A DNA stretch of 64,000 nt from Vulcanimicrobiota bacterium (GTDB lineage: Bacteria; Vulcanimicrobiota; Vulcanimicrobiia; Vulcanimicrobiales; Vulcanimicrobiaceae), in the NCBI GenBank assembly GCA_963723515.1, contig CAVRQT010000002.1:32001-96000 (forward strand), written 5' to 3'. This document shows positions 38,146 to 53,245 of this stretch, piece by piece; positions within the stretch are counted from its first letter, which is position 1, and each line of letters opens with the position of its first letter. The notes under the pieces are model-generated. The model saw only the letters and a list, made by a program, of their open reading frames with translations. It was not told the origin of the DNA and made no database searches. The translations under genes were made by a program, and so were the position numbers.

Positions 38146-41100
38146 TTACGTGGCGAGCACCGGTTCGCGGAGTTCCGCTTGCATCGCCCGCTGATCCGCG
38201 CGGCGCTCGAGATAGCCGATCCACGTGTTGTAGATCATCGGCACCAAGAAGAGCGTCAGGATCAGAGAGCTGAGCAGTCCGCCGATGATGACGGTCCCCA
38301 TGGCCTGCCGCCATTCAGCTCCTTCCGCAAATCCAAAGGCAAGCGGCAACATGCCGAAGACCATCGCAAACGTCGTCATCAAAATCGGACGGAACCGTGT
38401 GGCGGCTGCTTGCAACACGGCGTCGTGCACGCGCATGCCGCGCTTGCACAACGTATTCGAGTAGTCCACAAGCAGAATGCCGTTCTTCGACACCAATCCG
38501 AAGAGCATCACGATGCCGAGCATCGAGAGCAAGTTCAACGATTGTCCGGCGTCGGGCTGAAGGCGATGCATCAGCGCCAATGCCATGAACGCACCGACGA
38601 TAGCGACCGGAACGCTGAACATCACGATGAGCGGCTCGAGGAACGACCCGTACAGGATCACCATCAGCATGTACACGAGCATGAATGACGTCGTGAGCGC
38701 GATGCCCATGTCGACCATCGTCTGTTGCAAGTATTTCGTGTCGCCTTGCGACTCGAGGCTGACGCCGGCCGGCAAGAATCCCGGCTGATGCAGCTTTCGC
38801 TCCAATGGGCTCGTCACTGCGCCGAGCGAGTAACCGGGCAACACATCGCCTAGGACATTGACGACGCGCTGCTTGTCTAGCCGGTCGATCTTCGTCGGCG
38901 CTTTGGTCCATGTAAAGGTCGCAACATCGGAAAGAGGCACCAGCGTTCCATCGCTCGCGCGCACTCTCACGCTTTGCATCGACTCGACGGTGTTGCGGTC
39001 TTGCGGCGGAAACTGCACGCGCACGTCAACGAGGCCATCCGGCGTTCGCACCTTGGTTGCAACGGCGCCGTCCACGGCAATGCGTGCTGCCGTCGCAGCT
39101 GCACCCGGAGAGACGCCGAGCACTGCCGCTTTAGCGGCATCGATCTGCACGTTCAGACGCGGCGCGGCAACTTCGTTGCTGGTCTGCACGTTGACCGATC
39201 CCGGCGTGTCGCGCAAGAACTTTGCGACTTTCTCGGCCGCCGGTCCGATAGCGTCTTCAGGGCCCTGCAACGCATAGAAGATCGCCGCGCCTGAGCCGCC
39301 GCCGGTATCGCCTTGCACTTGAAACTGGCCACCCGGGACCAAATACCCCAGTTTTCGGACATCGCCGATAACGCGATTCGTTTCGCTGCGGCGATTCTTG
39401 TACGTTTCGGCATCTAACGTGGCATAGTTGCCGCCGACAACGCTGCCCCAACCGAACGGTTTGCGGCCCACGGTCGAGCTGATCGACTGAACGCCGTCGA
39501 CTTTCAGAATCGCGTTCTCGAGCCGATCGACATACTTCGCGGTCGTCTCAATCGGGGTTCCCGGCGGATAGGTTACGGTCATGGCGACGTGGCCAGTCTG
39601 CGTGTTGGGAACGAAATCGAAGCTGATTTGACCCAGGAGCGGCATTACGATCGCAAGCACGATCGGCACGGCGAACCACAGCACTGCAGCGCGCCGTCGC
39701 GTACCGAAGTCGCGAAGCGCGCGGACCTGCGTGCGCAAGATATTCTTTGCTATCGCAAATCGGTGCCAAACGAAGAATCCGACCGCGGCGACGACCACCA
39801 AAAGCGAGAGCAGCGGATTGATGCTCGCGGCCAACGCGGCGAGAACCAGCGTGCCGACGGCTCCGAGCGCAGTCCACAGTATCGCCTTCTTGTCGGCAGT
39901 CCGTGCTGCGCCGTTGCTGTCGCGAGGCTGTTCGCGGTAGCGGCGCAAACTTATTTGGCGCGAACTTGCGCAAGAGCAAGCCCCCCGCAAGCCCGCCCAA
40001 GAGCAGCGCAAAAACGAATACGTCGAAGCGCATCGCCGTCGTTCCGCCGCCGAGCAAGAGAACCGAATTCAGAAACAGCATGGAGCAGACGAAAACGACG
40101 AAGAAACCGTGGCGCATCGCCATCGGCAGCAGCTTTGTGCGATAGGCCGTGAGAATCTCGTCGTAGCGCTGCACGAACGCATTCAACGCCAAAACGGCCA
40201 GCAAGAATACGCCGATGAGCCGCGCAAAGAGCCACGGCGTAAACCACGCTCCGACCGCGAGCGCGGCCAATCCACCGTTCAGCCAAGGGTGTTTCGTGAT
40301 CTCAAGCCATCGCGGCGGCGCACCGCTGCGCTTGCGAACGCTCCACTTCGCCGCAAGCAGCGGCGTGAGCGTGAAGGAAACAAAGAGCGAGAAGAGCGTC
40401 GCCACCACGACCACAAGGGCGAACTCCTTGAGGAACTTGCCGACGATGCCCGAGAGAAATGCGATCGGCAAGAAGACGACGACGTCGACCATCGTGATGG
40501 CGATCGCGGCGCTGCCGATCTCCGTGCGCCCGTTGATCGCGGCGTTGACCGGCTCTTCGCCTTGATCGCGATGCCGCGTGATATTCTCCAAGACGACGAT
40601 CGAATCGTCGACCAAGATGCCGATAATAAGCGAGAGTCCCATGAGCGACATGATGTCGAGATGGAAGCCGAACGCTTTCATCAGGACCATCGTCGCGAGA
40701 ATCGACGTCGGGATCGCCAGCATGACGACCGCCGCATTACGCCATGCGTGCAGGAAGAGCAGCATGACGATTGCGGTCAAGAGAATTCCCTCGCCGAGGG
40801 ACTGCCAGACGCCGCTCAACGATGCTTGCGTATAGTCAGCGGGAGCATCTATCTCGTGAAAGTTCAGCTGCGGGAATTGTGCGTTGATCTTCTTGAGCTG
40901 GTCCCGCGCAATCTTCGTCGACTTGATTTCGTCCGCGTTGATGTTGCGGCCGATCTCGACGTACAGGCGCGGCTCGCCGTTGAAGTGAGAAATCGTGCGT
41001 TGCTCGGCGTGGCCGTCGACAGCAGTCGCGATGTCGCCTAAGCGCAGCTCTTTGTTGGCGCCTCCCGGAACCGGCAGCGGGATGCCGAGCATGTCCGACG

Positions 41101-41809
41101 CCTTATTGATGTCGGCATGGATCGAAACGCTCGCCTCTTGCGTCGGCTGCAACAGCCGTCCGCCCGGAAGCGTCGCATTGTTCGCGGCGACCGCGGTGAA
41201 GATGTCACCGAGCGTCGCATTGACGCCTTGCAGCGCGATCGGATCGGGCTGAAGCTGGAACTCACGCTGCTGCGCGCCGTAGACGTCAACCGTTTGCACG
41301 TTCGGAATTTGCTTGAGGACCGGCACTAAGCGGTTGTTGACCAAGTCCGCGAGCGCTTCGGGACGTAAAGACTTCGAGCTGATCGCGATGTCGAGAAGCG
41401 GCTGCGAGGCGCCGTTCTTAAAAACGTAAGGCGGATCGAGGTCCGTCGGCATGAACGCTCGTGCGGTATCGACGCGCCGCTGCACGTCGATCGCGCCGAG
41501 ATCCAGGTTCGTATCGATTTGGAACTGGACGACGATCGTCGCGACGCCTTCTTGCGCACTGGCGGTCATCTGATCGAGGTTGTCGATGCCGTCGAGCTGA
41601 TCTTCAATCGGCTTGATGACCAAGCGCTCCATCTCATCGGGAGATGCGCCTGGGTAAGTGGACTGTACGACGACAACCGGAAAGTCGGTGCCGGGCGGGT
41701 TCGCGCTGCGCCCTAACGTCAGATAGGCGATAAAGCCGAACACCGCGAGTGCAATAAAGATCATCGCGGTGATGACGGGGCGGTTAATTGCGAATCGAGT
41801 CAACCACAC
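38146..41809 (-). CDS. RND (AcrB/SwrC-type) efflux transporter (frameshift near 39900-39960)
   Basis: YPGASP, GILVDDSIVVLEN, VSFTLTP; second frame VSKNGIL, RFRPILMT. Confidence 0.92.
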
Positions 41810-42003: not shown

Positions 42004-42027
42004 CCCTTCGACAAGCTCAGGGTGACA
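42004..42027. repeat. REP-like palindromic repeat
   Basis: CCCTTCGACAAGCTCAGGGTGACA; reverse complement of the 50447-50470 copy at 23/24. Confidence 0.8.
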
Positions 42028-42032
42028 GACGG

Positions 42033-42152
42033 CGGGGCAGGGCAATGGTTCACTCGGGGGTGTACGGAGCGGGCATCTTCCATTTATCAGATTCCGCGGA
42101 GTCAAGCGCACGAGAGGGAGCGTCCCACGAGTCGGACCGTTGCCCTGACCCG
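42033..42152 (+). ncRNA. Putative structured RNA / hairpin element, copy A
   Basis: Long terminal stem with G-U pairs on the + strand. 31/39 identity with copy B and compensatory changes. Confidence 0.45.
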
Positions 42153-42183
42153 AGCAGCGCGATGATTGAACCGGGTGAGCATT

Positions 42184-42267
42184 TGCGCGAGACTGGACTC
42201 GAACCAGCACGCCCTTGCGGGCGCTAGCCCCTCAAGCTAGTGCGTCTACCAATTTCGCCACTCGCGC
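42184..42267 (-). tRNA. tRNA-Leu (anticodon GAG), CCA not encoded
   Basis: GCGCGAG acceptor stem, D-loop TGGTAGA, anticodon arm CTAGC-TTGAGGG-GCTAG, long variable arm, GTTCGAGTCC. Confidence 0.97.
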
Positions 42268-42304
42268 TTAGGCCAGGAACAGCGGAACTTCGCAAGTTTA
42301 GGGC

Positions 42305-43227
42305 TCAGCGCATATTCGGGTCAAGCGCATCCGCAACCCGTCGCCCATGTAGTTGATCGCCAGCACGGTGACGAGAATGCAAAGGCCGGGGAAGACGGCC
42401 GCCCACCAAGCGACCTGCAGATTCGAGATCGCGTTGCTCAGCATGTTGCCCCACGACGCCGTCGGCGGTTGAATTCCAAATCCTAGGAACGATATCGTCG
42501 ATTCAAGCACGATGACATTCGCGACGTCGAGCGTCGCTTGAACGATCAACGGTGCCATTGCATTCGGCAAGAGGTGCCGGAAGATGATGCGGGCATCGTT
42601 GTTACCTACCGCGCGCGCGGCTTCCGTATATTCGCGTTCCCGCAGAGAAAGGAATTGCGCGCGAACCAGTCGCGCGGCGGAGGGCCAAATGAGGGCTCCG
42701 ATGACGATCACGATGACCCCGAAACTCAGCGACGCCTTACTGGAACTCGCGGCCACGATCGCCGTTAGCACGAGCAGCAACGGCAACAGGGGGATCGACA
42801 AAAAGACGTCGGTGATGCGCATGATAATGTAGTCGACCCAGCCGCCGTAATAGCCGGCGATCGCGCCCAAGACCGTCCCGATGATGATTTCCATCAGCGT
42901 AGCGCTGATGCCGACCGTCAAAGAGATCCGCGCGCCGAACATCAAACGCGAAAGCAAGTCGCGGCCGACTTCGTCGGTGCCTAACGCATGATGTGCTATG
43001 CCGGGCGCAAGCGGGGTGCCGAGCCAGTGGACGTTGTCGATTGCATTCGGATCGTAGGGCGCGAGCTGCTTCGCAAAGATTGCGATAAGCACCATGAAGC
43101 CAAGCACGATGATTCCCGCAAGCGCGAGTTTATGGCGGCGGAAGCGCTTCCAAACGGTGACCTTACTGACAACGACGTCGTCTTCAGCTGCGGCGATCCT
43201 TTGATCGATCGGAATGCTTACAGCCAT
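42305..43227 (-). CDS. oppC: Oligopeptide/dipeptide ABC permease, C subunit (frameshift near 42331)
   Basis: LGTDEVGRD, GARISL, EAA loop, RHLLPN. The canonical GDGLRDALDP end is restored by adding one G. Confidence 0.9.
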
Positions 43228-43240
43228 CTCGAGCTCCCTT

Positions 43241-43266
43241 GGAACCTCTGGATATCCAGAGGTTCC
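43241..43266. repeat. Perfect 26-bp palindrome between oppB and oppC
   Basis: GGAACCTCTGGATATCCAGAGGTTCC equals its own reverse complement. Confidence 0.9.
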
Positions 43267-44238
43267 CTAATCATACTTCACGCGCGGATCGAGCCACGCG
43301 TACGCGACATCCGCCAAAAGATTCGAAAAGACGACGAAGAACGCGCCCAGCAGCAAGTAGCCCATCAGCAGCGCGATGTCGCTCTGTCCGAGAGCATTGA
43401 AGAACAGGCGTCCCGCACCGGGCCACGCAAAGATCGTCTCCGTCACGATGGCGCCGCCGACCAAACCGGGCAGGGCGAGCGCGACGATCGTCACGATCGG
43501 AATCATCGCATTCTTGAGGCCGTGTTTGAAAAGAACGGTTCGTCGGTCGAGACCTTTGGCTGCCGCCGTCCGCATGTAGTCGGTATGAATGACTTCCAAC
43601 ATCGAGCTGCGCATGAAGCGGCTATAGAGCGCCAACTGCAGGAGCGCCAAAACGATCGTCGGCAAAATCAAATGCACGATTCGATCGCTCAATACGAAAT
43701 TGTCATACGTGCTCAAGCTCGCCGACGGCAACCGAATTTCATAGCCGAACGCCTGGATGCCATGCACGGCAAACGCAAGCTGCAGCATCAAGGCGAACCA
43801 AAACACCGGCATCGATTGACCGAAGAACGCGAGCGTGGTGATGAAGTAATCCGAGAGCGAATACGGACGAACAGCGGCAAAGATGCCGGCCGAAAGTCCA
43901 AACGCCAGCGCCACAACAAAGGCGCTGACCTGCAACTCGAGCGTCGCCGGCAGCCGCTCCACGATCGCCTGCAAGACCGATTCGGAATTTGAGGTCGAGT
44001 AACCGAGGTCGCCGTGCAGCAGCTGTCCGAGCCAGACGAAATACCGGTAGATGAGCGGCTTGTCCAGCCCCAAATTATGCTTCAAACGCGCGATGTCGGC
44101 CGGCGTGATGTGCGGATTTTGCAGATATGGCGCAAGCGGGCCGCCCGGAGCATTGTTCAAGATGAGAAACAAGATCAGCGAGATCAGAATCAGCAGCGGA
44201 ATCGCTTGCAGCGTGCGCCGAACTACATAATTGAACAT
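43267..44238 (-). CDS. oppB: Oligopeptide/dipeptide ABC permease, B subunit
   Basis: LGLDKP, RLPATLEL, RTAAAKGL, TETIFAWPG, DPRV. Confidence 0.9.
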   Translation of the reverse strand: MFNYVVRRTLQAIPLLILISLILFLILNNAPGGPLAPYLQNPHITPADIARLKHNLGLDKPLIYRYFVWLGQLLHGDLGYSTSNSESVLQAIVERLPATLELQVSAFVVALAFGLSAGIFAAVRPYSLSDYFITTLAFFGQSMPVFWFALMLQLAFAVHGIQAFGYEIRLPSASLSTYDNFVLSDRIVHLILPTIVLALLQLALYSRFMRSSMLEVIHTDYMRTAAAKGLDRRTVLFKHGLKNAMIPIVTIVALALPGLVGGAIVTETIFAWPGAGRLFFNALGQSDIALLMGYLLLGAFFVVFSNLLADVAYAWLDPRVKYD

Positions 44239-44255
44239 CGCGGAATGCAGGCCGA

Positions 44256-45107
44256 TTAGGGCCTGCTTGCAGGTTCTCCTGTAACGGTTGCTTCGTGTCT
44301 GCGCAGCCGCAAAATCGTGCGCGCTTCGTTTGGCGTGCACACCTCGCGGCCGGCTTCGGCGGCGAGTCGACGCACGCGCGCCACGAGCTCTTCGTTCGTC
44401 GCTAGGCGCCCGCGCGAATAGTAAATGTTGTCTTCGAGTCCAACGCGCACGTGACCGCCCATCGCGATCGCGACAACCGACATCGGCAGTTGACCGCGCC
44501 CGATTCCCGAGGCAGACCATGTGCATCCCGCCGGAAGATTGTCAACCAAATCGCTCAAATTGTGCACCGTTGCATCGAGGCCGCCAGGGACACCGAGAAC
44601 AAAGTTGACGTGCTGCGGCAGTTGCAATACGCCTTCTTGCTCGAGCCGGCGCGCATTGCTCAGATGTCCCTTATCAAAGATTTCCAGCTCCGGCCGAACG
44701 TCGTACATCTTCATCTCTAGCAGAAGTCCGCGCATAATCGCGAAGCTGTTTTCGAAGATGTGCTCGCCAAAGTTGACGGTGCCACATGTGAGACTCGCCA
44801 TTTCGGGTCGCAATCGTAGCGGAGCGCGACGCTCTTCGGGCGTCATTCCGATTGCGCCACCCGTCGAAAACTGAACGATCAGATCGCTGTTGGCGCGAAT
44901 CTCTTCGAGCGCCGCGGCAAACCGCTCGACACTGTGAGTATTCGTTCCATCGTCGTCGCGGCAATGAACGTGAATAATGGAAGCGCCTGCCTCTTGTGCC
45001 TTAGCAGCAACCGCCCCTAACTGCTTCGGCGTAATCGGAAGGTGCGGAGTTTGGTCAACCGTCAGTTCGGCGCCGGTCGGCGCGACGGTGATGATCAGCG
45101 GCTGCAT
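44256..45107 (-). CDS. kce: 3-keto-5-aminohexanoate cleavage enzyme (BKACE/DUF849)
   Basis: IITVAPTGAE, IIHVHCR, QFSTGG, PELEIFD, HVRVGLEDN; adjacent to kamB/kamC-like genes. Confidence 0.88.
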   Translation of the reverse strand: MQPLIITVAPTGAELTVDQTPHLPITPKQLGAVAAKAQEAGASIIHVHCRDDDGTNTHSVERFAAALEEIRANSDLIVQFSTGGAIGMTPEERRAPLRLRPEMASLTCGTVNFGEHIFENSFAIMRGLLLEMKMYDVRPELEIFDKGHLSNARRLEQEGVLQLPQHVNFVLGVPGGLDATVHNLSDLVDNLPAGCTWSASGIGRGQLPMSVVAIAMGGHVRVGLEDNIYYSRGRLATNEELVARVRRLAAEAGREVCTPNEARTILRLRRHEATVTGEPASRP

Positions 45108-46707
45108 CGCGACAAAATGTCCTTGGCGCTTTGAACGAGCTCCTTGTCGAGCCCGAGCCACGCCGCGAGCTCGAGCGCATCGGAGGCCGCCTCACGTGCC
45201 TGAGGCGCGCGTTCGATTCGATAGTCCATGCGTTCAGCCAACGCGCGCAGCGCATCCTCCGTGCCGGCAAATTCCGGCGGCGTGCCATCGCTGCGCAGGC
45301 GGCCGACGGCAAAGTGTGCGATCTCAGCCTGCGCATCAAGCTCGATCAAGTGCGTCGCGGCGATGGCGCATCCGTCGCGCTTGCGCAACGCTCCGAGCAG
45401 CGCCAACAACAGCGCGTATGCCTCGCCGGGCGCCGTTGTGCGCGCGAATTCATCGATCAGCCAAAGCGTTCTGGGCCGCTGCTCCAGCAGTTCGCGCAGC
45501 CGCACGATCTCGCGCGCAAACGACGAGAGCAGCGGCTGCCGATCGTGAGCGCTGACATCGCGAGACGCCGAGCCACCGAATGCGCTCGAACAGCGCGACG
45601 GACGCACTTTTTGCCGGAACCGGTAAGCCGAACGCTGCACAAAGCGCGATGAAACCGGCCGTGCGTAATGCCGCGCTCTTTCCGCCCATGTTCGGACCCG
45701 TAAGCACATTTGATTCTCCAAAAGCGAGATCGATTGCAACATAGCGTTGTTCGTTGAGCGCGAGGTTCTCTTCGAGCGGCAAAAACCGGGCGCCACGGAC
45801 CTCGAGCGCTGTATGCGCCACATACTGAGGAACGACGCAACCGTAACGCTGCGCGAACAATGCGGCCGCTATCAGGACATCGGCATCCGCTGCGTCGAGA
45901 CCGCCCGCATTGAGCGCACCGGCAAAGTTTGCGACGACCGCGGAAAGGTTCTTGCGAACGTCTTCCTCCGCAGTTGCGGCAGCCGTCGCGCATCGATCGC
46001 GCATTTCGAGGGCCTCGAGCGCGGGCCGATCCAATTCCACCTCGCATAACAGATAGGTGGGCGCTTCACGAATCACATGAACGCCTGCCGGCAGTTGACC
46101 GCGCAGCTCATCGCGCATCACGATGAATTCATCGGTTGCGATCCCCTCGCGGCGGAGGGCCTCCGCAACGCGCGCATTGAGCGTTGCTCGCAACGCTTCA
46201 AATCGGTTCTCTGCTTCAGCAAGCTCGCGCCGTTTTTCGGCAAGCGTCTCAGAGAACCGATCGCCCAGAAAGAACGAGAATCCACCGCTTCTTCCCGCTG
46301 AAAGCGCTTCGAAGCACCGGGCCGCAAAGCGTCATTCCTCCCGGGAGAATCACCGCATCGATCAGCGCCGCAAGTTCTTTCATTCCGTCGCAAAATTGAA
46401 GCACCATAAAGAGATCGGGATCGCCTAGCGTCTCACCAAGCCGCGCGCGGCCGATTGCCGAGCGAATGTCGGGCAGGCGGCGAAGCACTTCGCGAATCGA
46501 TTCTAGAGTGTCGGATGCAAACGTACGCGCAACGTTGGCGATGCGTTCGCCGTGTTGTTGCGCCGCAGCTTCATCGCCCGTTCGAAATGGTTCCCAACGC
46601 GCAAAACGATCAGCGCCATATTGAGTTAGGGGCTGGAGTTGATTGGCGACCCAATCGAAGCGCAGCTCCGCGGCAGTTATGGCGTCACAGAGTGCACGAA
46701 CGTTCAT
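45095..46707 (-). CDS. kamC: MutS-domain-V ATPase, KamC-like (lysine 5,6-aminomutase reactivase ATPase); two frameshifts near 46320 and 45570
   Basis: LQPLTQYG at the N-terminus, Walker A TGPNMGGKS, LSSFAREI, LIDEFARTT, ATH, MDYRI; no mismatch-binding domain. Confidence 0.7.
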
Positions 46708-47610
46708 GCGGCGGCACGCGTTCCGGCGTACGCATCAAATGTGGGCAGCCCCGTCTGCTCGGCGACAGCGCGCGCAAACTCGCGCGGTTCAAAATATCGG
46801 TCGCGTCCGATCGAGGCAACCGTTACTGCAACGATCCGTAAGGGATGCTCGCAACGGATCTCGAGCGCTTCAGACGCTTTGAGCAGCGCGTTGCCATGCA
46901 GAACGATGCGCGTTGGATCGGTTACGACGACTTGCCGCCTCTCATGGGCGCCGATTAATGTCTCTGCTGCGAGCGGAATCTAAGACACCGGCGATACGCA
47001 CGAACGGTCTCGCCGGATCGAACGCGGGCGTCTGCAGCCGCCGAACGAGTGCGCCGGTTTGCGTCGCCGCCGCTTCAAGTGTCGCAGCCGCGGAAGCACC
47101 CGTTGCGACGATAACCGCATCATCTTCACCCGCAAGCGCCGCCAATCGATCGACCGCTCCATCGATGATGACGCGTTGGGCACCATGGGCGAACAACCGC
47201 CGCTTCACGCGGTGCATCGCCGACGCATTCGGCGGACCGACGAGCTCGATGTTCGCCGGCGCACGCGTTCGGATAAAGACGATGGCGCCAAGTGCGGTCG
47301 CCATATCTGAAACCTCGAGAATCTCGCACGCCGGCGATGGCGACAAAGCGTCGCGCGCAGTCGCGGCAAAGACGTTCGCTTCCAACCGCAGGCGCGGCTT
47401 GGGCATCGCATCGACCGCATCGATCGCTTCACCATCGCGTCCAACGGATGCAACGCCGAAGGGCCGCTGATGTTTCTGAAGCGCGCCGCACAGCGTTCTC
47501 ACAACGACCGTCTTGCCGACGTTCTTCGCCGTGCCCACGACGGCAATCGAGCGCGAGCCGTGCGCCTCACAAAGCTCCAGCAAGGATTCGCCGACGTCTA
47601 AAGGCCCCAA
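46704..47610 (-). CDS. kamB: KamB-like protein (lysine 5,6-aminomutase reactivase subunit); frameshift near 46970
   Basis: VVGTAKNVGKT, SVGRDGE, KPR, IDGAVDR, IVATGA. The shifted frame ends in an ATGA overlap with kamC. Confidence 0.7.
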
Positions 47611-48161
47611 CGCAGCACCTTATTTGCGATAAAAAACAACCCGGTGACGAGCAGCACGATACCGGCCCAAAGTTCAGCGCCTTCTTCCGCGCGCCGCCCC
47701 AGCGTGCGACCAAGTGCTATCCCGGCAAACGTTGCGATTACGGACGCGACACCAATGGCGATCAGTGCCGTATACAACGGCACGCCGATATAAAGGATCG
47801 AAAAGCCGATTCCGAGCGAATCGAGACTGATTGAAAGCGACGCGACCGCAAGGCCCCAGCCCCTCGTCATGTCGAGTGCGCTGCCCGAACGGGCCTCTCG
47901 GAGACTCTCAGCGATCATGTAAGCGCCAAGCGCGACCAACGCGATGAATCCGAGATATCCCGCGACGCTCCCGATCAACTGTCCAAGGACCGAGCCGAGC
48001 CCTACACCGACCAAGCTCATCGCGATCTGCGCCACCGCAAACGAACATCCTATGCGCCATTTAGTCGATGGGCGAACGCCACGCATTCCGACGCCGATAC
48101 TCACCGCAAAGCAGTCCAACGCCAACGATAGCGCAACGAAAAGAATCTTGAGCGCGGCCAC
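47598..48161 (-). CDS. mntP: Manganese efflux pump MntP family
   Basis: ALSLALDCFAVSIG and SISLDSLGIG repeats; six hydrophobic segments. Confidence 0.85.
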   Translation of the reverse strand: MAALKILFVALSLALDCFAVSIGVGMRGVRPSTKWRIGCSFAVAQIAMSLVGVGLGSVLGQLIGSVAGYLGFIALVALGAYMIAESLREARSGSALDMTRGWGLAVASLSISLDSLGIGFSILYIGVPLYTALIAIGVASVIATFAGIALGRTLGRRAEEGAELWAGIVLLVTGLFFIANKVLRWGL

Positions 48162-48169
48162 CGTTCGCC

Positions 48170-48194
48170 ATCATACCACTGATTTTGGTAGAGT
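48170..48194. promoter_or_regulatory. Back-to-back extended -10 promoters, probably leaderless
   Basis: Minus strand TGG-TATGAT 8 nt before the GTG of mntP. Plus strand TGG-TAGAGT 7 nt before GTG 48202. Confidence 0.6.
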
Positions 48195-48201
48195 CTTTTT
48201 T

Positions 48202-48969
48202 GTGAAACGCGCTGCCTGGCCGTTCGTCGTCGCATTAGCGATATTGGCGTTCGCGATGCTCTGGCCGACGCTCGCACTTTTGACCAACGTTTCGCCTGCC
48301 GCCGTCGCAAGTGTCTTCGCCGGTCCGAGCGTTCGCAACGCTGCGCTCGTTTCGCTTATCGCATCCACGGTCGCCGTATTGGCGGCAACGATTCTTGGCG
48401 TGCCGGCGGCATACGAACTCGCGCGCTGGCGTGATGGTCCACGAAGTGTTGCGTTGTTCGTCCTTGGATTGCCGCTTGCGTTTCCGCCGGTTGCGAGCGG
48501 CATCATTCTATTGAACGTCATTGGAGTGCAGACGCCGTTCGGCGCATGGTTGAGCCGCCACGGAATCTTCCTCGTTGATTCTTTGGGCGGCGTCGCGCTT
48601 GCGGAATTCTTCGTTTCCGGATCGTTCGTGGTCATCGCTGCGAGTGCAGCGTTTCGAGCGGTCGATCCGATCTACGAGGAGGCCGCCGCGACTCTCGGCG
48701 CATCTCGGGTGCAGACGTTTTGGCGCATCGCTCTACCGCTCGGGGCGCCAAACATTTTCGCGGGTGTGCTCCTCGCATGGCTGCGCGCGATCGGCGAGTA
48801 CGGCGCGACGTCGATCGTGGCCTATCGGCCGACGTCCTTGCCGGTCGCGCTCTACGTTACGCTGTCGGCGCAAGGCCTCGCCCCTGCGCTGGCGTTGAGT
48901 TACGGATTCGTCGTGCTTGCCGCACTCGTTATTGCCGTGCAATGGGCGGTCCGGCGCCACGTCGTATAA
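48202..48969 (+). CDS. Molybdate/anion ABC permease (ModB-like)
   Basis: LPLAFPPVASG, YEEAAATLGAS, RAIGEYGAT. Confidence 0.85.
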   Translation: MKRAAWPFVVALAILAFAMLWPTLALLTNVSPAAVASVFAGPSVRNAALVSLIASTVAVLAATILGVPAAYELARWRDGPRSVALFVLGLPLAFPPVASGIILLNVIGVQTPFGAWLSRHGIFLVDSLGGVALAEFFVSGSFVVIAASAAFRAVDPIYEEAAATLGASRVQTFWRIALPLGAPNIFAGVLLAWLRAIGEYGATSIVAYRPTSLPVALYVTLSAQGLAPALALSYGFVVLAALVIAVQWAVRRHVV

Positions 48970-48977
48970 CGCCGCTC

Positions 48978-49872
48978 GTGGCTCTGCTCGAACGCGTTTT
49001 TGCGCCGGAATCCAGCTTTCAAAAGCGCTTCTTTTTCTTGGCAAGGCGGTTCGTCGCCGGAGAGACGATCGACGACGCACTCGCCGCCGTCCGCGCGATC
49101 AATGAGCGCGGCATGAGCGCAACGCTCGACTTCTTGGGAGAAGATGTAAGCGAAGAGAGCGCTGCGCTGCATACGCGCGACGTCTACTTCGACATTCTGG
49201 ACGCGATTAAACGCGAGGGCGTCGACAGCAACGTTTCCGTCAAGCTGTCGGCTCTCGGTTTGCTGATCTCCGAAGACCTTGCAACGCAGCACCTGACGTC
49301 AATCGTCGAGCGCGCCGCGAACAACCGCGATCCCTTCGTGCGAATCGACATGGAAGGTTCCGGCTGCACGCAACCGACGCTCGGCGTTTTCGAGCGGGTC
49401 TTCGCTTCTCACGCGAAACGTTGGGCCGGTGTTGCAGGCGCTGTTGAAGCGAACGCCGGCTGACGTAGAGCAAATGATCGGGCTAAAAGCACGCGTTCGT
49501 CTGTGCAAAGGCGCCTACAAAGAGCCCGCGGCGATCGCGCACCAATCGATGCCGACGATTCGCCGCGAATATTTGCGACTGGCCGAGCGGCTGCTGTCGT
49601 CCGCAACCTATCCCGGGCTCGCGACACATGACCTGCGTTTGATCGGCGCGATCAAGCGTTTTACGAAACAACACGCGATCGCACCGGATCGCTTTGAGTT
49701 TCAGATGCTCTACGGCGTGCGCCCGCACATCCAACGAGAGCTCATATCTGAAGGGTATCGCCTTCGCATCTACATTCCGTTTGGAACGCATTGGGCGGCG
49801 TACTTCTATCGTCGCGTGCTCGAGCGCAAGGAGAACGCGCTCTTCGCCTTGTCCTCGCTCTTCTCGCGCTGA
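48978..49872 (+). CDS. Monofunctional proline dehydrogenase (frameshift near 49417)
   Basis: RFVAGET, LDFLGE, SVKLS, RIDME; second frame RLCKGAY, ATHD, EFQMLYG. Confidence 0.92.
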
Positions 49873-50321
49873 TGCGCGCGGTCGTGCAGCGGGTTTCCTC
49901 CGCGGCGGTTGACGTCAACGGGGAGACAACTGGAGAGATCGCAGAGGGCCTATGCGTGTTGCTCAGCGTCGGTGTTGACGACGCCGACGATGATGCCGCC
50001 GGCATAGCCGACAAAATTGCGGAACTTCGAATCTTTCGCGACGAGCAAGGCCAGATGAACCGCTCCCTCATCGATACCGGCGGCGCCGTGTTGCTGATCT
50101 CTCAGTTCACGCTCCACGGCGACGCGCGAAAAGGACGCCGGCCCTCCTTTATAACGGCCGCTCGTGAAGAGCAGGCAAAGCCGCTCTACGAACGAGTCGG
50201 GCAACTTCTCGAGCGGCGCGGACTCACTGTTGCGTACGGTATTTTCGGCGCGCGCATGAGCGTTCAACTCGTCAACGAGGGTCCGGTAACGATCCTCTTA
50301 GATTCGAAGAAGTTGTTCTAA
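49872..50321 (+). CDS. dtd: D-aminoacyl-tRNA deacylase
   Basis: MRAVVQRV, SQFTL, KGRRPSF, NEGPVT. Confidence 0.97.
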   Translation: MRAVVQRVSSAAVDVNGETTGEIAEGLCVLLSVGVDDADDDAAGIADKIAELRIFRDEQGQMNRSLIDTGGAVLLISQFTLHGDARKGRRPSFITAAREEQAKPLYERVGQLLERRGLTVAYGIFGARMSVQLVNEGPVTILLDSKKLF

Positions 50322-50352
50322 GTTCGCAATGCCGGCCGAACGCTGCATAAAC

Positions 50353-50376
50353 TGTCACGCTGAGCTTGTCGAAGCG
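50353..50376. repeat. REP-like palindromic repeat
   Basis: TGTCACGCTGAGCTTGTCGAAGCG. Confidence 0.8.
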
Positions 50377-50392
50377 CCACTGTAATTGTCAT

Positions 50393-50543
50393 CGTCGCCA
50401 CGTGACGGGGTGACATTTCCCTCGGCGGACGTGACACTGTCATCGTTGTCACCCTGAGCCTGTCGAAGGGGCCTCCTTTCAATAGCGGGAGTCGCCTGCT
50501 CCATACGCCCCCGAGTGAAACGTCACCCCGCCACATGACAACG
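50393..50543 (-). ncRNA. Putative structured RNA / hairpin element, copy B, with a nested REP
   Basis: 33-bp stem (50393-50425 with 50511-50543) with G-U pairs on the minus strand; homologous to 42033-42152. Confidence 0.45.
50447..50470. repeat. REP-like palindromic repeat
   Basis: TGTCACCCTGAGCCTGTCGAAGGG. Confidence 0.8.
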
Positions 50544-50574: not shown

Positions 50575-52053
50575 CTAGCGTGAGTCGGGGATTTGCTCCA
50601 CGCGCGTCATGCGATCGCTTTCCACCAGACGGCCGAGCACGTCGAAGCCGCTGCTCACCTCTCCGAATACCGTGAAATCGCGATTTAAATGCAGTTGCGG
50701 CGAGAGGGTGATGTAAAATTGCGTCCCTGCTGAATCACGAATCGGGCTGTTGTCTTTGTAATTCAAGCCCATCGAAATAACGTAGCTGCGCTGCTCGAGC
50801 GGATTCTCTTCGGCGGGAATCGAGTAGCCGGCATCGCCCTCACCATTGTCACTTGGATCCCCGGTCTGCACGACAAAGTCGGGGACGATTCGGAACCAGC
50901 GCAGGCCATCGTAGTAGCCGCGGTTCGTGAGGTTCAAGAAGTTCTCGACCGTCAACGGCGCCCATTCGGGATAGAGCGTGAGGATCAGCGTGCCTTTCGT
51001 CGTGCGAATTCGAACGCGCGGGTGCGGTCCGGGCATCGGTCCATCCATGAGTGCGGACGTCGTCGGATGCAAACGCGGGCGCGTGATGATGCCTTGCGGA
51101 TCGGGGGCCGATGGTTTCCCGCTAAACGTCGGGCGTGGTAACGGCGCGATTTCCATGAAATTCTGCACGTGCACCGGCGGAACGTGAACGCCGGCAGGCA
51201 TCTCTTTCAGATGATCGGTGGGTGGCTCACCGCGCAGCGCTCGCATCGATTCGATCGTTTGCAGTTGCACGCGCCACGATGCATCATTGAGCAGCGGTTG
51301 CAGCGTCGAAAGCGCATCTTTGTTTTTTAGGCGACCGTACGCGCGAACGGCTTCAATGCGTACGAGCTCGTTACGATCGTGCAATGCGTTCGTCAAAATT
51401 TCGCGAGGAACACGGATCGCATATCCGCGGTAGATCGTCCACATGATGTGCCAGCGAACGTCATCATCGCGTTCGCGGGTGAAGGCGTTCGCAAGCTCGC
51501 GCGAGGCGAGATCGCCCATCAGTCCGGTCCGAAACGCTTCGAACGCCGCCGCCGCGCGACCCCGAACTCGCGGATCGCGATCCGCCTTCAGGGCGGCCAC
51601 AAGTGCCGACGCGGCTGACGATTCATCGTTACCGCGGAATCGTTGCGCAGCCTCATAGCGTGCAATCGCATCGATCGCCGCGACGCGAACCGCGGTCGAG
51701 CGGTCGCTGTTGACGTCGCTGATCAACGTCGGTGCGCTCGCGCCGTTTGCAATCAGGCCCAGACCATACACCGCCATAGCGCGGACGCCGTCATCTCGAT
51801 CGTGGATGTGGCGCTGGAGCAGCGACACGCCGTGCGGATCCTTCGTCCGCCCAATGGCGAGCGCAGCACGCGCTGCAATCGAGGAGTCCTTAGAGGCGAG
51901 ATAGCCGGCGAGCGCTCCTCTGCCAAGCGAGCGGGCTTTCTCGAGACCGGCCATCGACTGGTACGGGTCGGCTGCGCTGGCCAAGGCCGCCATTGCCACC
52001 ATGAGGGCAGCCGCCTTGAAGAGCACTGGGAGCGACCGATTGTTCAGAAACAT
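50575..52053 (-). CDS. Exported HEAT-repeat cyclophilin-type peptidyl-prolyl isomerase
   Basis: Signal peptide, HEAT repeats (VRAMAVYGLG, VRIEAVRAYG), then APLTVENF, FRIVPDFVVQTGDP, SAGTQFYI, FTVFGEV. Confidence 0.9.
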   Translation of the reverse strand: MFLNNRSLPVLFKAAALMVAMAALASAADPYQSMAGLEKARSLGRGALAGYLASKDSSIAARAALAIGRTKDPHGVSLLQRHIHDRDDGVRAMAVYGLGLIANGASAPTLISDVNSDRSTAVRVAAIDAIARYEAAQRFRGNDESSAASALVAALKADRDPRVRGRAAAAFEAFRTGLMGDLASRELANAFTRERDDDVRWHIMWTIYRGYAIRVPREILTNALHDRNELVRIEAVRAYGRLKNKDALSTLQPLLNDASWRVQLQTIESMRALRGEPPTDHLKEMPAGVHVPPVHVQNFMEIAPLPRPTFSGKPSAPDPQGIITRPRLHPTTSALMDGPMPGPHPRVRIRTTKGTLILTLYPEWAPLTVENFLNLTNRGYYDGLRWFRIVPDFVVQTGDPSDNGEGDAGYSIPAEENPLEQRSYVISMGLNYKDNSPIRDSAGTQFYITLSPQLHLNRDFTVFGEVSSGFDVLGRLVESDRMTRVEQIPDSR

Positions 52054-52147
52054 CTAACGTTCGGGTGGTTCAGTGCGTTGTAGTATATGGAGCACTCAAG
52101 TGCCGTCCTCCCAGGGCGGACCAACGGAAAGACAGGTTCAGCACACC

Positions 52148-52498
52148 ATGCCCAGCAGTCCCCAATCCAGAAAGAATGGCGGTATGACCGTCCGAGAGGC
52201 CGGTCAAAAAGGCGGCGAGACCGTCAAGAAAAAGTACGGCCCGGAGTTTTATGAAACGATCGGGCGCAAAGGCGGCCAGGCGACGAAGCTGGCTCACGGT
52301 CACGCCTTCTACGAACAAATCGGTAAGAAAGGCGGGAAGAAAGGCGGCGAAGCGACGCGCGACCGCTACGGCCCGAATTTCTACGAACAGATCGGACAAA
52401 AAGGTGGCCAAAAAGTCAAGCAACTCATCGAAGAAGGAAAGCGAGCTGCTGCGGCATCGCGCCGGGCGCAGAGCGCCGAAGAAAAGCGCGCGTCCTAA
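52148..52498 (+). CDS. KGG-repeat general stress protein (GsiB/Em-like)
   Basis: MTVREAGQKGG followed by repeated FYE(T/Q)IGxKGG units. Confidence 0.9.
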   Translation: MPSSPQSRKNGGMTVREAGQKGGETVKKKYGPEFYETIGRKGGQATKLAHGHAFYEQIGKKGGKKGGEATRDRYGPNFYEQIGQKGGQKVKQLIEEGKRAAAASRRAQSAEEKRAS

Positions 52499-52502
52499 CA
52501 CC

Positions 52503-53245
52503 TTGCGCTGGTTTCTTGTCTGCCTTGCGGCCGCATCTGCGGCCGCAATGAGTTTGCGGGCGATACCAACGCTTGCCGTCCCTGCACCCCAATCGTCACC
52601 CGGGTCGTCAGCGACGAGCGCGCCGACTGCGTTGCCGAGCGGCGCACGCGTCTTGCCGCTTGATTCGAGTGTGCTCTTCGTTCTCGACGACCGCATCGGC
52701 TCACGCGTTTCGCAGACGGGGACCGAAGCCCGCGCGCATCTCAAAGATCCGCTCGTTCTCGGCGGCATCACCGTAGCACCCGCCGGCACGCCCGTACGGA
52801 TAAAGATTACCGACGTCCATGGCGCACAGGCGCCCGATGTTGACGGGTCGATTGACATTCTGTTTGAGCCGATGCGGCTTGCGAATCAGACGCAACTGCC
52901 CTTACGTACGCCGACCGCGCATGTAACCGTTCATGTTACGGCCGGCGAAGCATCGACCGCCGGCGTCGCGGACACGATCAAAGACATCTTCATTCCTTAC
53001 CACTATCTCTATCGGCTCTTCCGCAAAGGGGCAGAACTCGATTTGCGCCCGGAACGATTTTGCGAGCGCGCACCGCGGCGGTCGTCAGAGTTGCAGGCGG
53101 CCTGGTCAGCGTCGTCGCCCCGCCGCCGTTTCACTTGAGCGTCGATCAACCGCACGCGCATTTTTCGCCGCTGCCTTTCTTGACGGTGGCGCCGAAGATC
53201 ACTCCGTCCCCAAGGCCGCGACCGCAGGCAACGCCGCCGCAGTAG
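52503..53245 (+). CDS. Exported hypothetical beta-rich protein (frameshift near 53050)
   Basis: TTG start, signal peptide, VAPAGTPV; adding one base restores LDLRPGTILRART. Confidence 0.6.

What the first reader, a model, noticed from the sequence alone, without database searches (positions are those of the whole stretch)
42033..50543. Two-copy structured element with compensatory base-pair changes, each beside a REP
Seen: copy A (42033-42152, +) and copy B (50393-50543, -) share an ungapped block, GGCAGGGCAATGGTTCACTCGGGGGTGTACGGAGCGGGC vs GGCGGGGTGACGTTTCACTCGGGGGCGTATGGAGCAGGC (31/39). Its 5' half pairs with each copy's own 3' end. Four positions show double compensatory changes (A-U/G-C, C-G/U-A, A-U/G-C, G-C/U-A), and three more swap a wobble for a Watson-Crick pair. 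G-U pairs favour the same orientation in both copies, and the segment GGGGYGTAYGGAGCRGGC beyond the stem is conserved. A has a REP 5 nt upstream; B has one REP nested inside and one just downstream. A is antisense to both neighbours. I do not recognise it as SRP, 6S, tmRNA or a riboswitch. Inference: an undescribed ncRNA or ssDNA-hairpin mobile family that travels with or attracts REPs. This is my best candidate for a new system, but it rests on two copies only.
Basis: partly seen in the sequence, partly recalled or inferred. Interest (0 to 1): 0.7.

Follow-up and report, generated by a model that had tools for sequence, protein, structure and literature searches.

The report
Loop-less TwoAYGGAY-type dispersed hairpin repeat
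The two look-alike hairpins are altered copies of a roughly 150-base repeat scattered through the genomes of this group of soil bacteria; it is a distant branch of the known but unexplained TwoAYGGAY elements, and these copies have lost the loops that give that family its name.

Summary
In detail: 31/39 identity, four double and three wobble changes, and the REP positions are all as described. A third copy lies elsewhere in the genome.

The element is not a new system. Models grown from the copies found a ~150-nt family in 118 of 151 genomes of this Eremiobacterota family (1 to at least 47 copies). It has a long covarying basal stem carrying two hairpins with A(N)GGAY loops. All 10 Rfam TwoAYGGAY (RF01731) hits in 151 family genomes are members; one passes the cut-off. 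A model built without window-type copies ranks B and A first in the window.

The family behaves like mobile DNA: filled and empty sites, flipped orientation at shared sites, divergent doublets, and placement mostly antisense just after stop codons. No transposase or reverse transcriptase partner was found. The window copies keep the stem and junction but have remodelled heads without AYGGAY loops. The REPs are a separate 148-copy family that inserted secondarily (2 of 54 canonical copies have one nearby). Expression is not shown.

The scan noted TwoAYGGAY-type repeats before on other DNA. Verdict: new variant of a known kind.

The parts
42033..42152 (+). Copy A: TwoAYGGAY-type element, window-type variant. 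Long basal stem closing a remodelled head (short hairpin, small palindrome, AG junction) with no AYGGAY terminal loops
   Evidence: fold; model R3 built without window-type copies scores it 31.3 bits, E 1.1e-4; alignments
42049..42070 (+). Conserved core of A: upper 5' arm of the basal stem (ending GGGGYGT) followed by AYGGAG
   Evidence: 3 matches in the genome; positions
42090..42103 (+). Small near-palindromic hairpin before the AG junction, found only in the window-type head
   Evidence: alignment; real matches only in the two genomes of this genus among 348 family genomes
42117..42152 (+). 3' arm of A, beginning with the family's GRRCGTCCC junction motif
   Evidence: alignments; R3 alignment
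42004..42027 (+). REP (TGTC-ended palindrome, 148 copies in genome), 5 nt before A; a separate family
42184..42267 (-). tRNA-Leu(GAG), neighbour; A lies about 30 nt past its 3' end, antisense
   Evidence: Rfam RF00005, 52.7 bits; anticodon read from the alignment
39548..41809 (-). AcrB/RND-type transporter ORF, other neighbour of A
   Evidence: Pfam PF00873 (12)
50393..50543 (-). Copy B: same element, basal stem intact, head largely replaced by a REP insertion
   Evidence: fold; R3 46.2 bits, E 8.6e-8, best hit in window
50447..50470 (-). REP inserted in the head of B
50353..50376 (-). Second REP, 16 nt past the 3' end of B
49875..50321 (+). dtd (D-aminoacyl-tRNA deacylase), converging on B
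   Evidence: Pfam PF02580 (12)
50575..52053 (-). HEAT-repeat/cyclophilin PPIase gene upstream of B on the same strand
   Evidence: Pfam PF00160, PF13646 (12)

Best explanation
A and B are derived copies of a non-autonomous dispersed element of the TwoAYGGAY kind that is common in this Eremiobacterota family. SHOWN: a ~150-nt unit that folds on one strand into a ~33-pair basal stem with two hairpins; variable copy number; present or absent at equivalent sites; flipped at shared sites; placed mostly antisense just past stop codons and in divergent doublets. SHOWN: the window-type copies keep the stem and junction motifs but have a truncated first arm and a decayed or missing second arm. INFERRED: the element spreads by being copied in trans through a folded single-stranded form (RNA or ssDNA) by a protein not encoded beside it. 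INFERRED: canonical loops can bind CsrA when that strand is transcribed, and the antisense bias inside operons reflects insertion preference or selection against CsrA sites in mRNAs. INFERRED: A and B no longer offer such loops and act at most as passive hairpins in read-through transcripts; REPs land in or beside them secondarily.
For: Family breadth: R2 hits 118 of 151 family genomes. R3 hits 61 of 71 family genomes, 3 of 10 others in the class, and 1 weak hit among 69 outside the class. Rfam bridge: 10 RF01731 hits in 9 of 151 genomes, 1 over cut-off. Eight of the 10 are R2 hits at 65-94 bits and the other two are R3 hits at 94-100 bits. L118 scores 45.2-50.3 bits against a cut-off of 43. 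Link to window: R3, trained on 54 canonical copies only, ranks B then A first in 64 kb, sense over antisense by about 20 bits, and scores C and three metagenome copies 46-56 bits. Covariation: 55 of 58 pairs change on both sides, 92.7% of cells paired, 0 of 500 shuffles, slid controls 38-48%. Strand: G-U 53 vs A-C 10 in the outer stem. Mobility: at least 47 copies in G005; two of these sites lack the element in congener G151. dtd and the PPIase gene abut with no element in G010 and G007, while elements follow dtd in G006 and G004 and sit flipped in G111. L039 and L040 share neighbours in opposite orientation. The gene at the 3' side is antisense in 66 of 83 scored cases, median 19 nt. Loops match the A(N)GGAX CsrA site (PMC4005645) and CsrA is found in 127 of 151 genomes.
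Against: A and B have no RF01731 match themselves and lack the two AYGGAY loops, so their placement rests on the stem and junction. A long perfect hairpin alone can reach 47 bits on the wrong strand with R3, above A's 31 bits. No mobilising gene was found: no Y1 transposase in 5 genomes, reverse transcriptase in 1 of 10, DUF559 in 1 of 10. Only 1 of 21 nuclease, RT or CsrA loci had a copy nearby, and 106 of 156 neighbour proteins scanned held one HNH and no transposase. No target duplication could be read at two filled/empty pairs (the second alignment was poor). Fourteen of 54 second loops have CGA rather than GGA, and canonical copies occur in genomes where CsrA was not found, such as G179. 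No expression was seen. Orientation counts use crude gene calls and related genomes.
Confidence: 0.72

Rival explanations
1. The family is a multicopy small-RNA sponge for CsrA kept for the host's benefit. A and B are decaying copies in a lineage whose CsrA has itself drifted.
For: Canonical loops are textbook A(N)GGAX sites: 50 of 54 first loops and 40 of 54 second loops contain GGA. G-U bias marks that strand. CsrA of this genus is among the five lowest-scoring of 127 genomes (59-61 bits against about 85-95), short, and without FliW in the genome. Genus g23 showed neither CsrA nor the element (0 of 3 each).
Against: Copies sit mostly antisense to their host transcripts, with no consensus promoter or terminator at A or B and no U-run after any of 54 canonical stems. 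Five other weak-CsrA genomes keep canonical-looking loops in most of their 19 copies. Copy number ranges from 1 to at least 47 with unrelated neighbours.
Confidence: 0.15
2. The window copies are an unrelated, genus-specific hairpin repeat that depends on the REP system. The resemblance to TwoAYGGAY relatives comes from shared GC-rich long stems.
For: The window-type head is confined to this genus among 348 family genomes. REPs lie in or beside 4 of 9 window-type copies (A, B, L037, L045). The genome has a REP-flanked GIY-YIG gene.
Against: The junction motifs GGGGYGU, AG and GRRCGUCCC and the second hairpin of C, L038 and L040 align in register with the canonical family. C retains an ACAGGAUG loop. 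G007 copies carry intermediate junction sequence. Where REPs are inside, they break the head.
Confidence: 0.08
3. The stems are DNA-level quasi-palindromes. Template switching keeps their arms complementary and flips their interiors, so the compensatory changes are a by-product rather than selection on an RNA.
For: Sister copies in G005 about 90% alike already differ on both arms in step. Flips at shared sites recur.
Against: It does not explain the G-U over A-C strand bias (53:10), the conserved loops and internal loop, or gains at new sites. It may still contribute alongside the best explanation.
Confidence: 0.05

Closest known systems
TwoAYGGAY RNA motif (Rfam RF01731; Weinberg et al. 2010, PMC2864571; extended in bioRxiv 10.64898/2026.09.22.753630)
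   Same: Two hairpins on a common, elongated basal stem; A(Y)GGAY loops including the shorter AGGAY and ACGA variants seen in the 2010 alignment rows; AG junction and 3' CGU motif; multicopy with wide copy-number spread; divergent doublets; nearby REPs and short tandem repeats at some loci; unknown mover.
   Different: A phylum not named in the preprint's main text or the 2010 table. The stem is near-perfect and GC-rich. The arm with the purine-rich internal loop comes first here but second in the 2010 rows read. Only 1 of 151 genomes passes the Rfam cut-off. The window copies lack the AYGGAY loops. The antisense-after-stop-codon bias was not found in the passages read.
Csr/Rsm sponge sRNAs (CsrB, RsmY, RsmZ; loop rules in PMC4005645)
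   Same: A(N)GGAX loops on short stems in the canonical copies.
   Different: Only two loops; dispersed in many copies; no promoter or terminator found. A and B have no such loops.
REPINs / REP-RAYT and MITE-type repeats (recalled; REP classes in PMC3733652)
   Same: Small non-autonomous hairpin DNA, extragenic, near gene 3' ends, with filled and empty sites.
   Different: No RAYT (Y1 transposase) in 5 genomes tested. Arms vary freely while staying paired, and the conserved part is the inner head and junction, not terminal repeats.
6S RNA (RF00013)
   Same: Long closing stem; 6S was not found in this genome.
   Different: No match; multicopy, sporadic sites; branched head rather than a central bubble.

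Membership tests
TwoAYGGAY (RF01731) | Score at or above the Rfam gathering cut-off (43 bits) | tested here: not met
   No hit for A, B or the genome. Within the wider family 1 of 10 hits passes.
TwoAYGGAY (RF01731) | Common basal stem closing the head, supported by covariation | tested here: met
   A, B, C fold so; family covariation.
TwoAYGGAY (RF01731) | Two sequential hairpins each with an AYGGAY-type terminal loop | tested here: not met
   Not met in A and B; C keeps one ACAGGAUG. Met in canonical relatives: GGA in 50 of 54 first and 40 of 54 second loops.
TwoAYGGAY (RF01731) | Junction motifs (AG between hairpins, CGU on the 3' side of the stem) | tested here: met
   AG and CGTC invariant in the 24-sequence alignment that includes A and C, matching the Rfam consensus. 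B was not in that alignment: it keeps CGTC (68), and its head is replaced by the REP.
TwoAYGGAY (RF01731) | Multicopy, variable copy number, divergent doublets (from the 2026 preprint) | tested here: met
   1 to at least 47 copies. Of 14 two-copy clusters read by eye from hit lists, 13 divergent, 1 tandem, 0 convergent. No doublet in this genome.
Csr/Rsm sponge sRNA | Transcribed as a discrete RNA and binds CsrA | not testable with these tools
   Four RNA runs covered the tRNA and a trace over the REP region, nothing across the element (77); binding cannot be tested.
REPIN / REP-RAYT | Cognate Y1 (RAYT) transposase in the genome | tested here: not met
   PF01797 in 0 of 5 genomes, including G000 and G005 (86); G000 is 88% complete.
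Retron msr-msd | Adjacent reverse transcriptase | tested here: not met
   PF00078 in 1 of 10 genomes, with no element beside it.
6S RNA | Match to RF00013 | tested here: not met
   0 hits in the genome; none at A or B.

The most novel reading that the evidence does not exclude
TwoAYGGAY-type elements are a distinct class of selfish non-coding replicators. They are copied by an unknown trans-acting or host enzyme that recognises the long stem and its junction and places them antisense just past stop codons. The window-type subfamily kept spreading to at least four different sites after losing both CsrA-type loops, which would separate the mobility determinant (stem and junction) from the regulatory one (loops).
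Probability: 0.25. Interest if true: 0.75.

Novelty: new variant of a known kind. Interest (0 to 1): 0.42.

Why it matters
How TwoAYGGAY elements spread, and whether their loops matter for spreading or for CsrA regulation, is stated as unresolved in a 2026 preprint. This work adds a large branch in another phylum that Rfam almost wholly misses, with filled and empty sites and a clear orientation rule. It also adds a natural loop-less subfamily that makes the loops-versus-stem question testable. It is not a new kind of system, and these two copies may be simple decaying relics.

Tried and rejected
Rfam at gathering and E-value thresholds gave only the tRNA in the window. On 16 loci, 12 of them with canonical copies, it gave only miRNA- and snoRNA-type noise and no RF01731 hit.

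Exact-core pattern searches:
- 0 of 40 relatives.
- Chance-level hits in 300 phylum genomes; none of the 29 non-self loci folded like the element (16, 17).
- 0 viral hits.
- 2 genome-collection hits and 1 of 5 metagenome hits were unrelated.
- No plasmid match.

6S RNA rejected. A short reading frame on the opposite strand was considered by eye and dropped once the family showed stem covariation.

Partner genes: Y1 transposase, RT, DUF559 and GIY-YIG were not tied to the element (86, 116-118, 120). 106 of 156 neighbour proteins were scanned, chosen to skip orthologous duplicates; they are mostly housekeeping genes, with one HNH.

Co-decay of loops with CsrA was weakened. Promoter and terminator scans were empty.

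Expression: 24 runs were listed, each with at most a 0.10 share of words; 4 were laid and nothing crossed the element (74, 77). This is no evidence either way.

Target-site duplication was not readable. An Atlas search only confirmed CsrA-likeness.
Full report
OBSERVATION. Copies A (42033-42152, +) and B (50393-50543, -) are as described. They align over 39 nt at 31 identities, with four double and three wobble changes in the block. Both fold better than all 200 shuffles, and better on the named strand. REPs are at 42004, 50447 and 50353. The genome (2.11 Mb, 4 contigs, 88% complete) holds a third copy C, and the 22-nt core has no other match at up to 4 mismatches. C lies between genes read by eye as pdxH and carB. 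Rfam finds only tRNA-Leu in the window. Proteins clustered at 90% with a window permease are named Candidatus Eremiobacteraeota, which fixes the phylum by inference.

CLOSE RELATIVES. An exact-core scan of metagenomes gave 5 loci, 4 of them true homologs. The one congeneric genome has two copies, one cut by a contig end and one broken by a REP. These nine window-type copies share the upper stem. Six (A, L038, L039, L040 and both G001 copies) share a near-identical head or its 5' part, at four different sites. This head was found only in this genus among 348 family genomes; three other 2-mismatch hits were not elements.

THE WIDER FAMILY. Model R1, from six window-type copies only, hit 15 of 151 family genomes. 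The new hits are 145-165-nt units: a near-perfect basal stem, a first arm with a purine-rich internal loop and a small hairpin, an AG junction, a second hairpin, and GRRCGUCCC. Model R2 hit 118 of 151 genomes (only 20 candidates scored per genome, so counts are floors; the tally includes 8 genomes flagged unpublished). Model R3, from 54 canonical hits at E up to 1e-11 in 48 loci, hit 61 of 71 family genomes, 3 of 10 others in the class and 1 of 69 outside it. In that alignment 55 of 58 pairs change on both sides, 92.7% of cells pair, no shuffle of 500 reaches it, and slid controls give 38-48%. The alignment was fitted to the structure, so these figures lean favourable; the MAFFT alignment gave 53 of 58 and 85%. 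G-U outnumbers A-C 53 to 10 in the outer stem. GGA is in 50 of 54 first loops and 40 of 54 second loops; 14 second loops have CGA.

LINK TO TwoAYGGAY. RF01731 gave 10 hits in 9 of 151 family genomes, one over the cut-off (50.3 bits on a local rescan). All ten are family members: 8 by R2, which did not include them, and 2 by R3. A further member scored 36.5 bits. R3 contains no window-type sequence yet ranks B (46.2 bits) and A (31.3) first in the window, and scores C, L038, L039 and L040 at 46-56 bits with the second hairpin in register in three. Against this, the wrong strand of a perfect stem reached 47 bits, and for A and B the model skipped the head. The link for these two therefore rests on the junction motifs and on C and the metagenome copies as bridges. 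G007 copies show junction sequence intermediate between the types (by eye).

BEHAVIOUR. G005 has at least 47 copies with a nearly identical second hairpin. Two of its sites lack the element in a congener at about 79% DNA identity, with gaps of 62 and 41 nt against 235 and 287. At B's site, dtd and the PPIase gene abut directly in G010 and G007; elements follow dtd in 3 of 21 genomes, this one included, and G111 has one there in the opposite orientation. Several other shared sites are flipped between genomes. Of 89 copies examined, 83 had a gene call on the 3' side; it was antisense in 66, median 19 nt from the stop codon. Between co-directional genes the copy was antisense in 29 of 41, including atp, nuo, infB and secY operons. 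These use my own crude gene calls, include some duplicates and related genomes, and overstate significance. Of 14 two-copy clusters read from hit lists, 13 were divergent and 1 tandem. The preprint reports 68% divergent doublets for Pseudomonas TwoAYGGAY.

REPs. The REP has 148 copies here and occurs in about 8% of intergenic regions over 100 nt. It is in or beside 2 of 3 local copies and 4 of 9 window-type copies, but only 2 of 54 canonical copies (other genomes may lack this REP). It is a guest, enriched at the altered copies, not a part of the element.

MECHANISM. Best reading (0.72): a non-autonomous element of the TwoAYGGAY kind, copied through a folded single strand by a protein acting in trans, of which A and B are loop-less derivatives. 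Structure, distribution and presence/absence are shown. The mover, the intermediate and any CsrA binding are inferred. No Y1 transposase (0 of 5), RT (1 of 10) or DUF559 (1 of 10) tracked the element, and 1 of 21 nuclease, RT or CsrA loci had a copy nearby. CsrA is in 127 of 151 genomes (includes 8 unpublished) and is unusually divergent in this genus. But five other weak-CsrA genomes keep canonical-looking loops, so co-decay is not established. Expression was not seen in four RNA runs. Whether the loop-less head spread by new insertion or by conversion of old copies is open: at the pdxH-carB site this genome's copy C keeps one loop, while the congener's copies have the A-type head.

LITERATURE SEEN. 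bioRxiv 10.64898/2026.09.22.753630: outline, abstract, 12 of 14 TwoAYGGAY passages, Discussion, and a term search. Its supplements were not seen and its taxon figure could include this phylum. PMC2864571: table passage, supplement hits, and the first 12 rows of the TwoAYGGAY alignment. PMC4005645 and PMC3733652: passages. Searches for TwoAYGGAY, AYGGAY, and Eremiobacter with CsrA listed no report of this branch; subscription papers are mostly not covered. REPIN, retron and 6S features are recalled. Two earlier notes of this scan describe TwoAYGGAY-type repeats in other genomes, seen after my reading was set (note).

VERDICT. A real feature and a new variant of a known kind. Interest 0.42.

Noticed in passing
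G000:C3:290780-291600 (L170): A small (~100 aa) GIY-YIG gene flanked on both sides by oppositely oriented arrays of the window's REP, in a genome with no Y1 transposase found (86). PMC3733652 says CGTC/TGTC-type REPs lack a dedicated transposase, so this is a candidate mover for them. Two paper searches listed no paper on such a link.
   Followed up: partly
G000:C3:928907-929044 (L083:1462-1638, -): The only CsrA found is short (58 aa), lacks the usual C-terminal helix motif by eye, scores 59 bits against about 90 in most relatives, and no FliW was found.
   Followed up: partly
window 38146-41809 (-) and 48720-49872 (+): The AcrB-type and proline dehydrogenase genes each appear as two overlapping ORFs in different frames; frameshifts, possibly assembly errors.
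   Followed up: no
L042:1-500 (G001:C17): In the congener, tRNA-Leu is flanked by an inverted, roughly 93% identical (by eye) duplicate of the permease gene's 3' end instead of copy A and the AcrB gene.
   Followed up: no
G000:C2:801769-801789: A 21-nt piece matching the 3' part of A's head lies beside a REP doublet, without the rest of the element; possibly a fourth, destroyed copy.
   Followed up: partly
L055, L059, L118, L120, L122, L124, L127, L193: A subfamily carries a conserved unpaired insert (UUCAAAAC-like) in the first arm; most Rfam-scoring copies are of this type.
   Followed up: no
L174:15550-15650 and L076 (G005): Short tandem repeats (about 14 nt x 6, about 10 nt x 3) directly follow some copies, recalling the flanking repeats reported for Pseudomonas TwoAYGGAY.
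   Followed up: no
window 52070-52858 (-), repeats at 52235-52410: Three short direct repeats that read by eye on the + strand as KGG-type stress-protein repeats; the overlapping minus-strand ORF had no Pfam hit (12).
   Followed up: no
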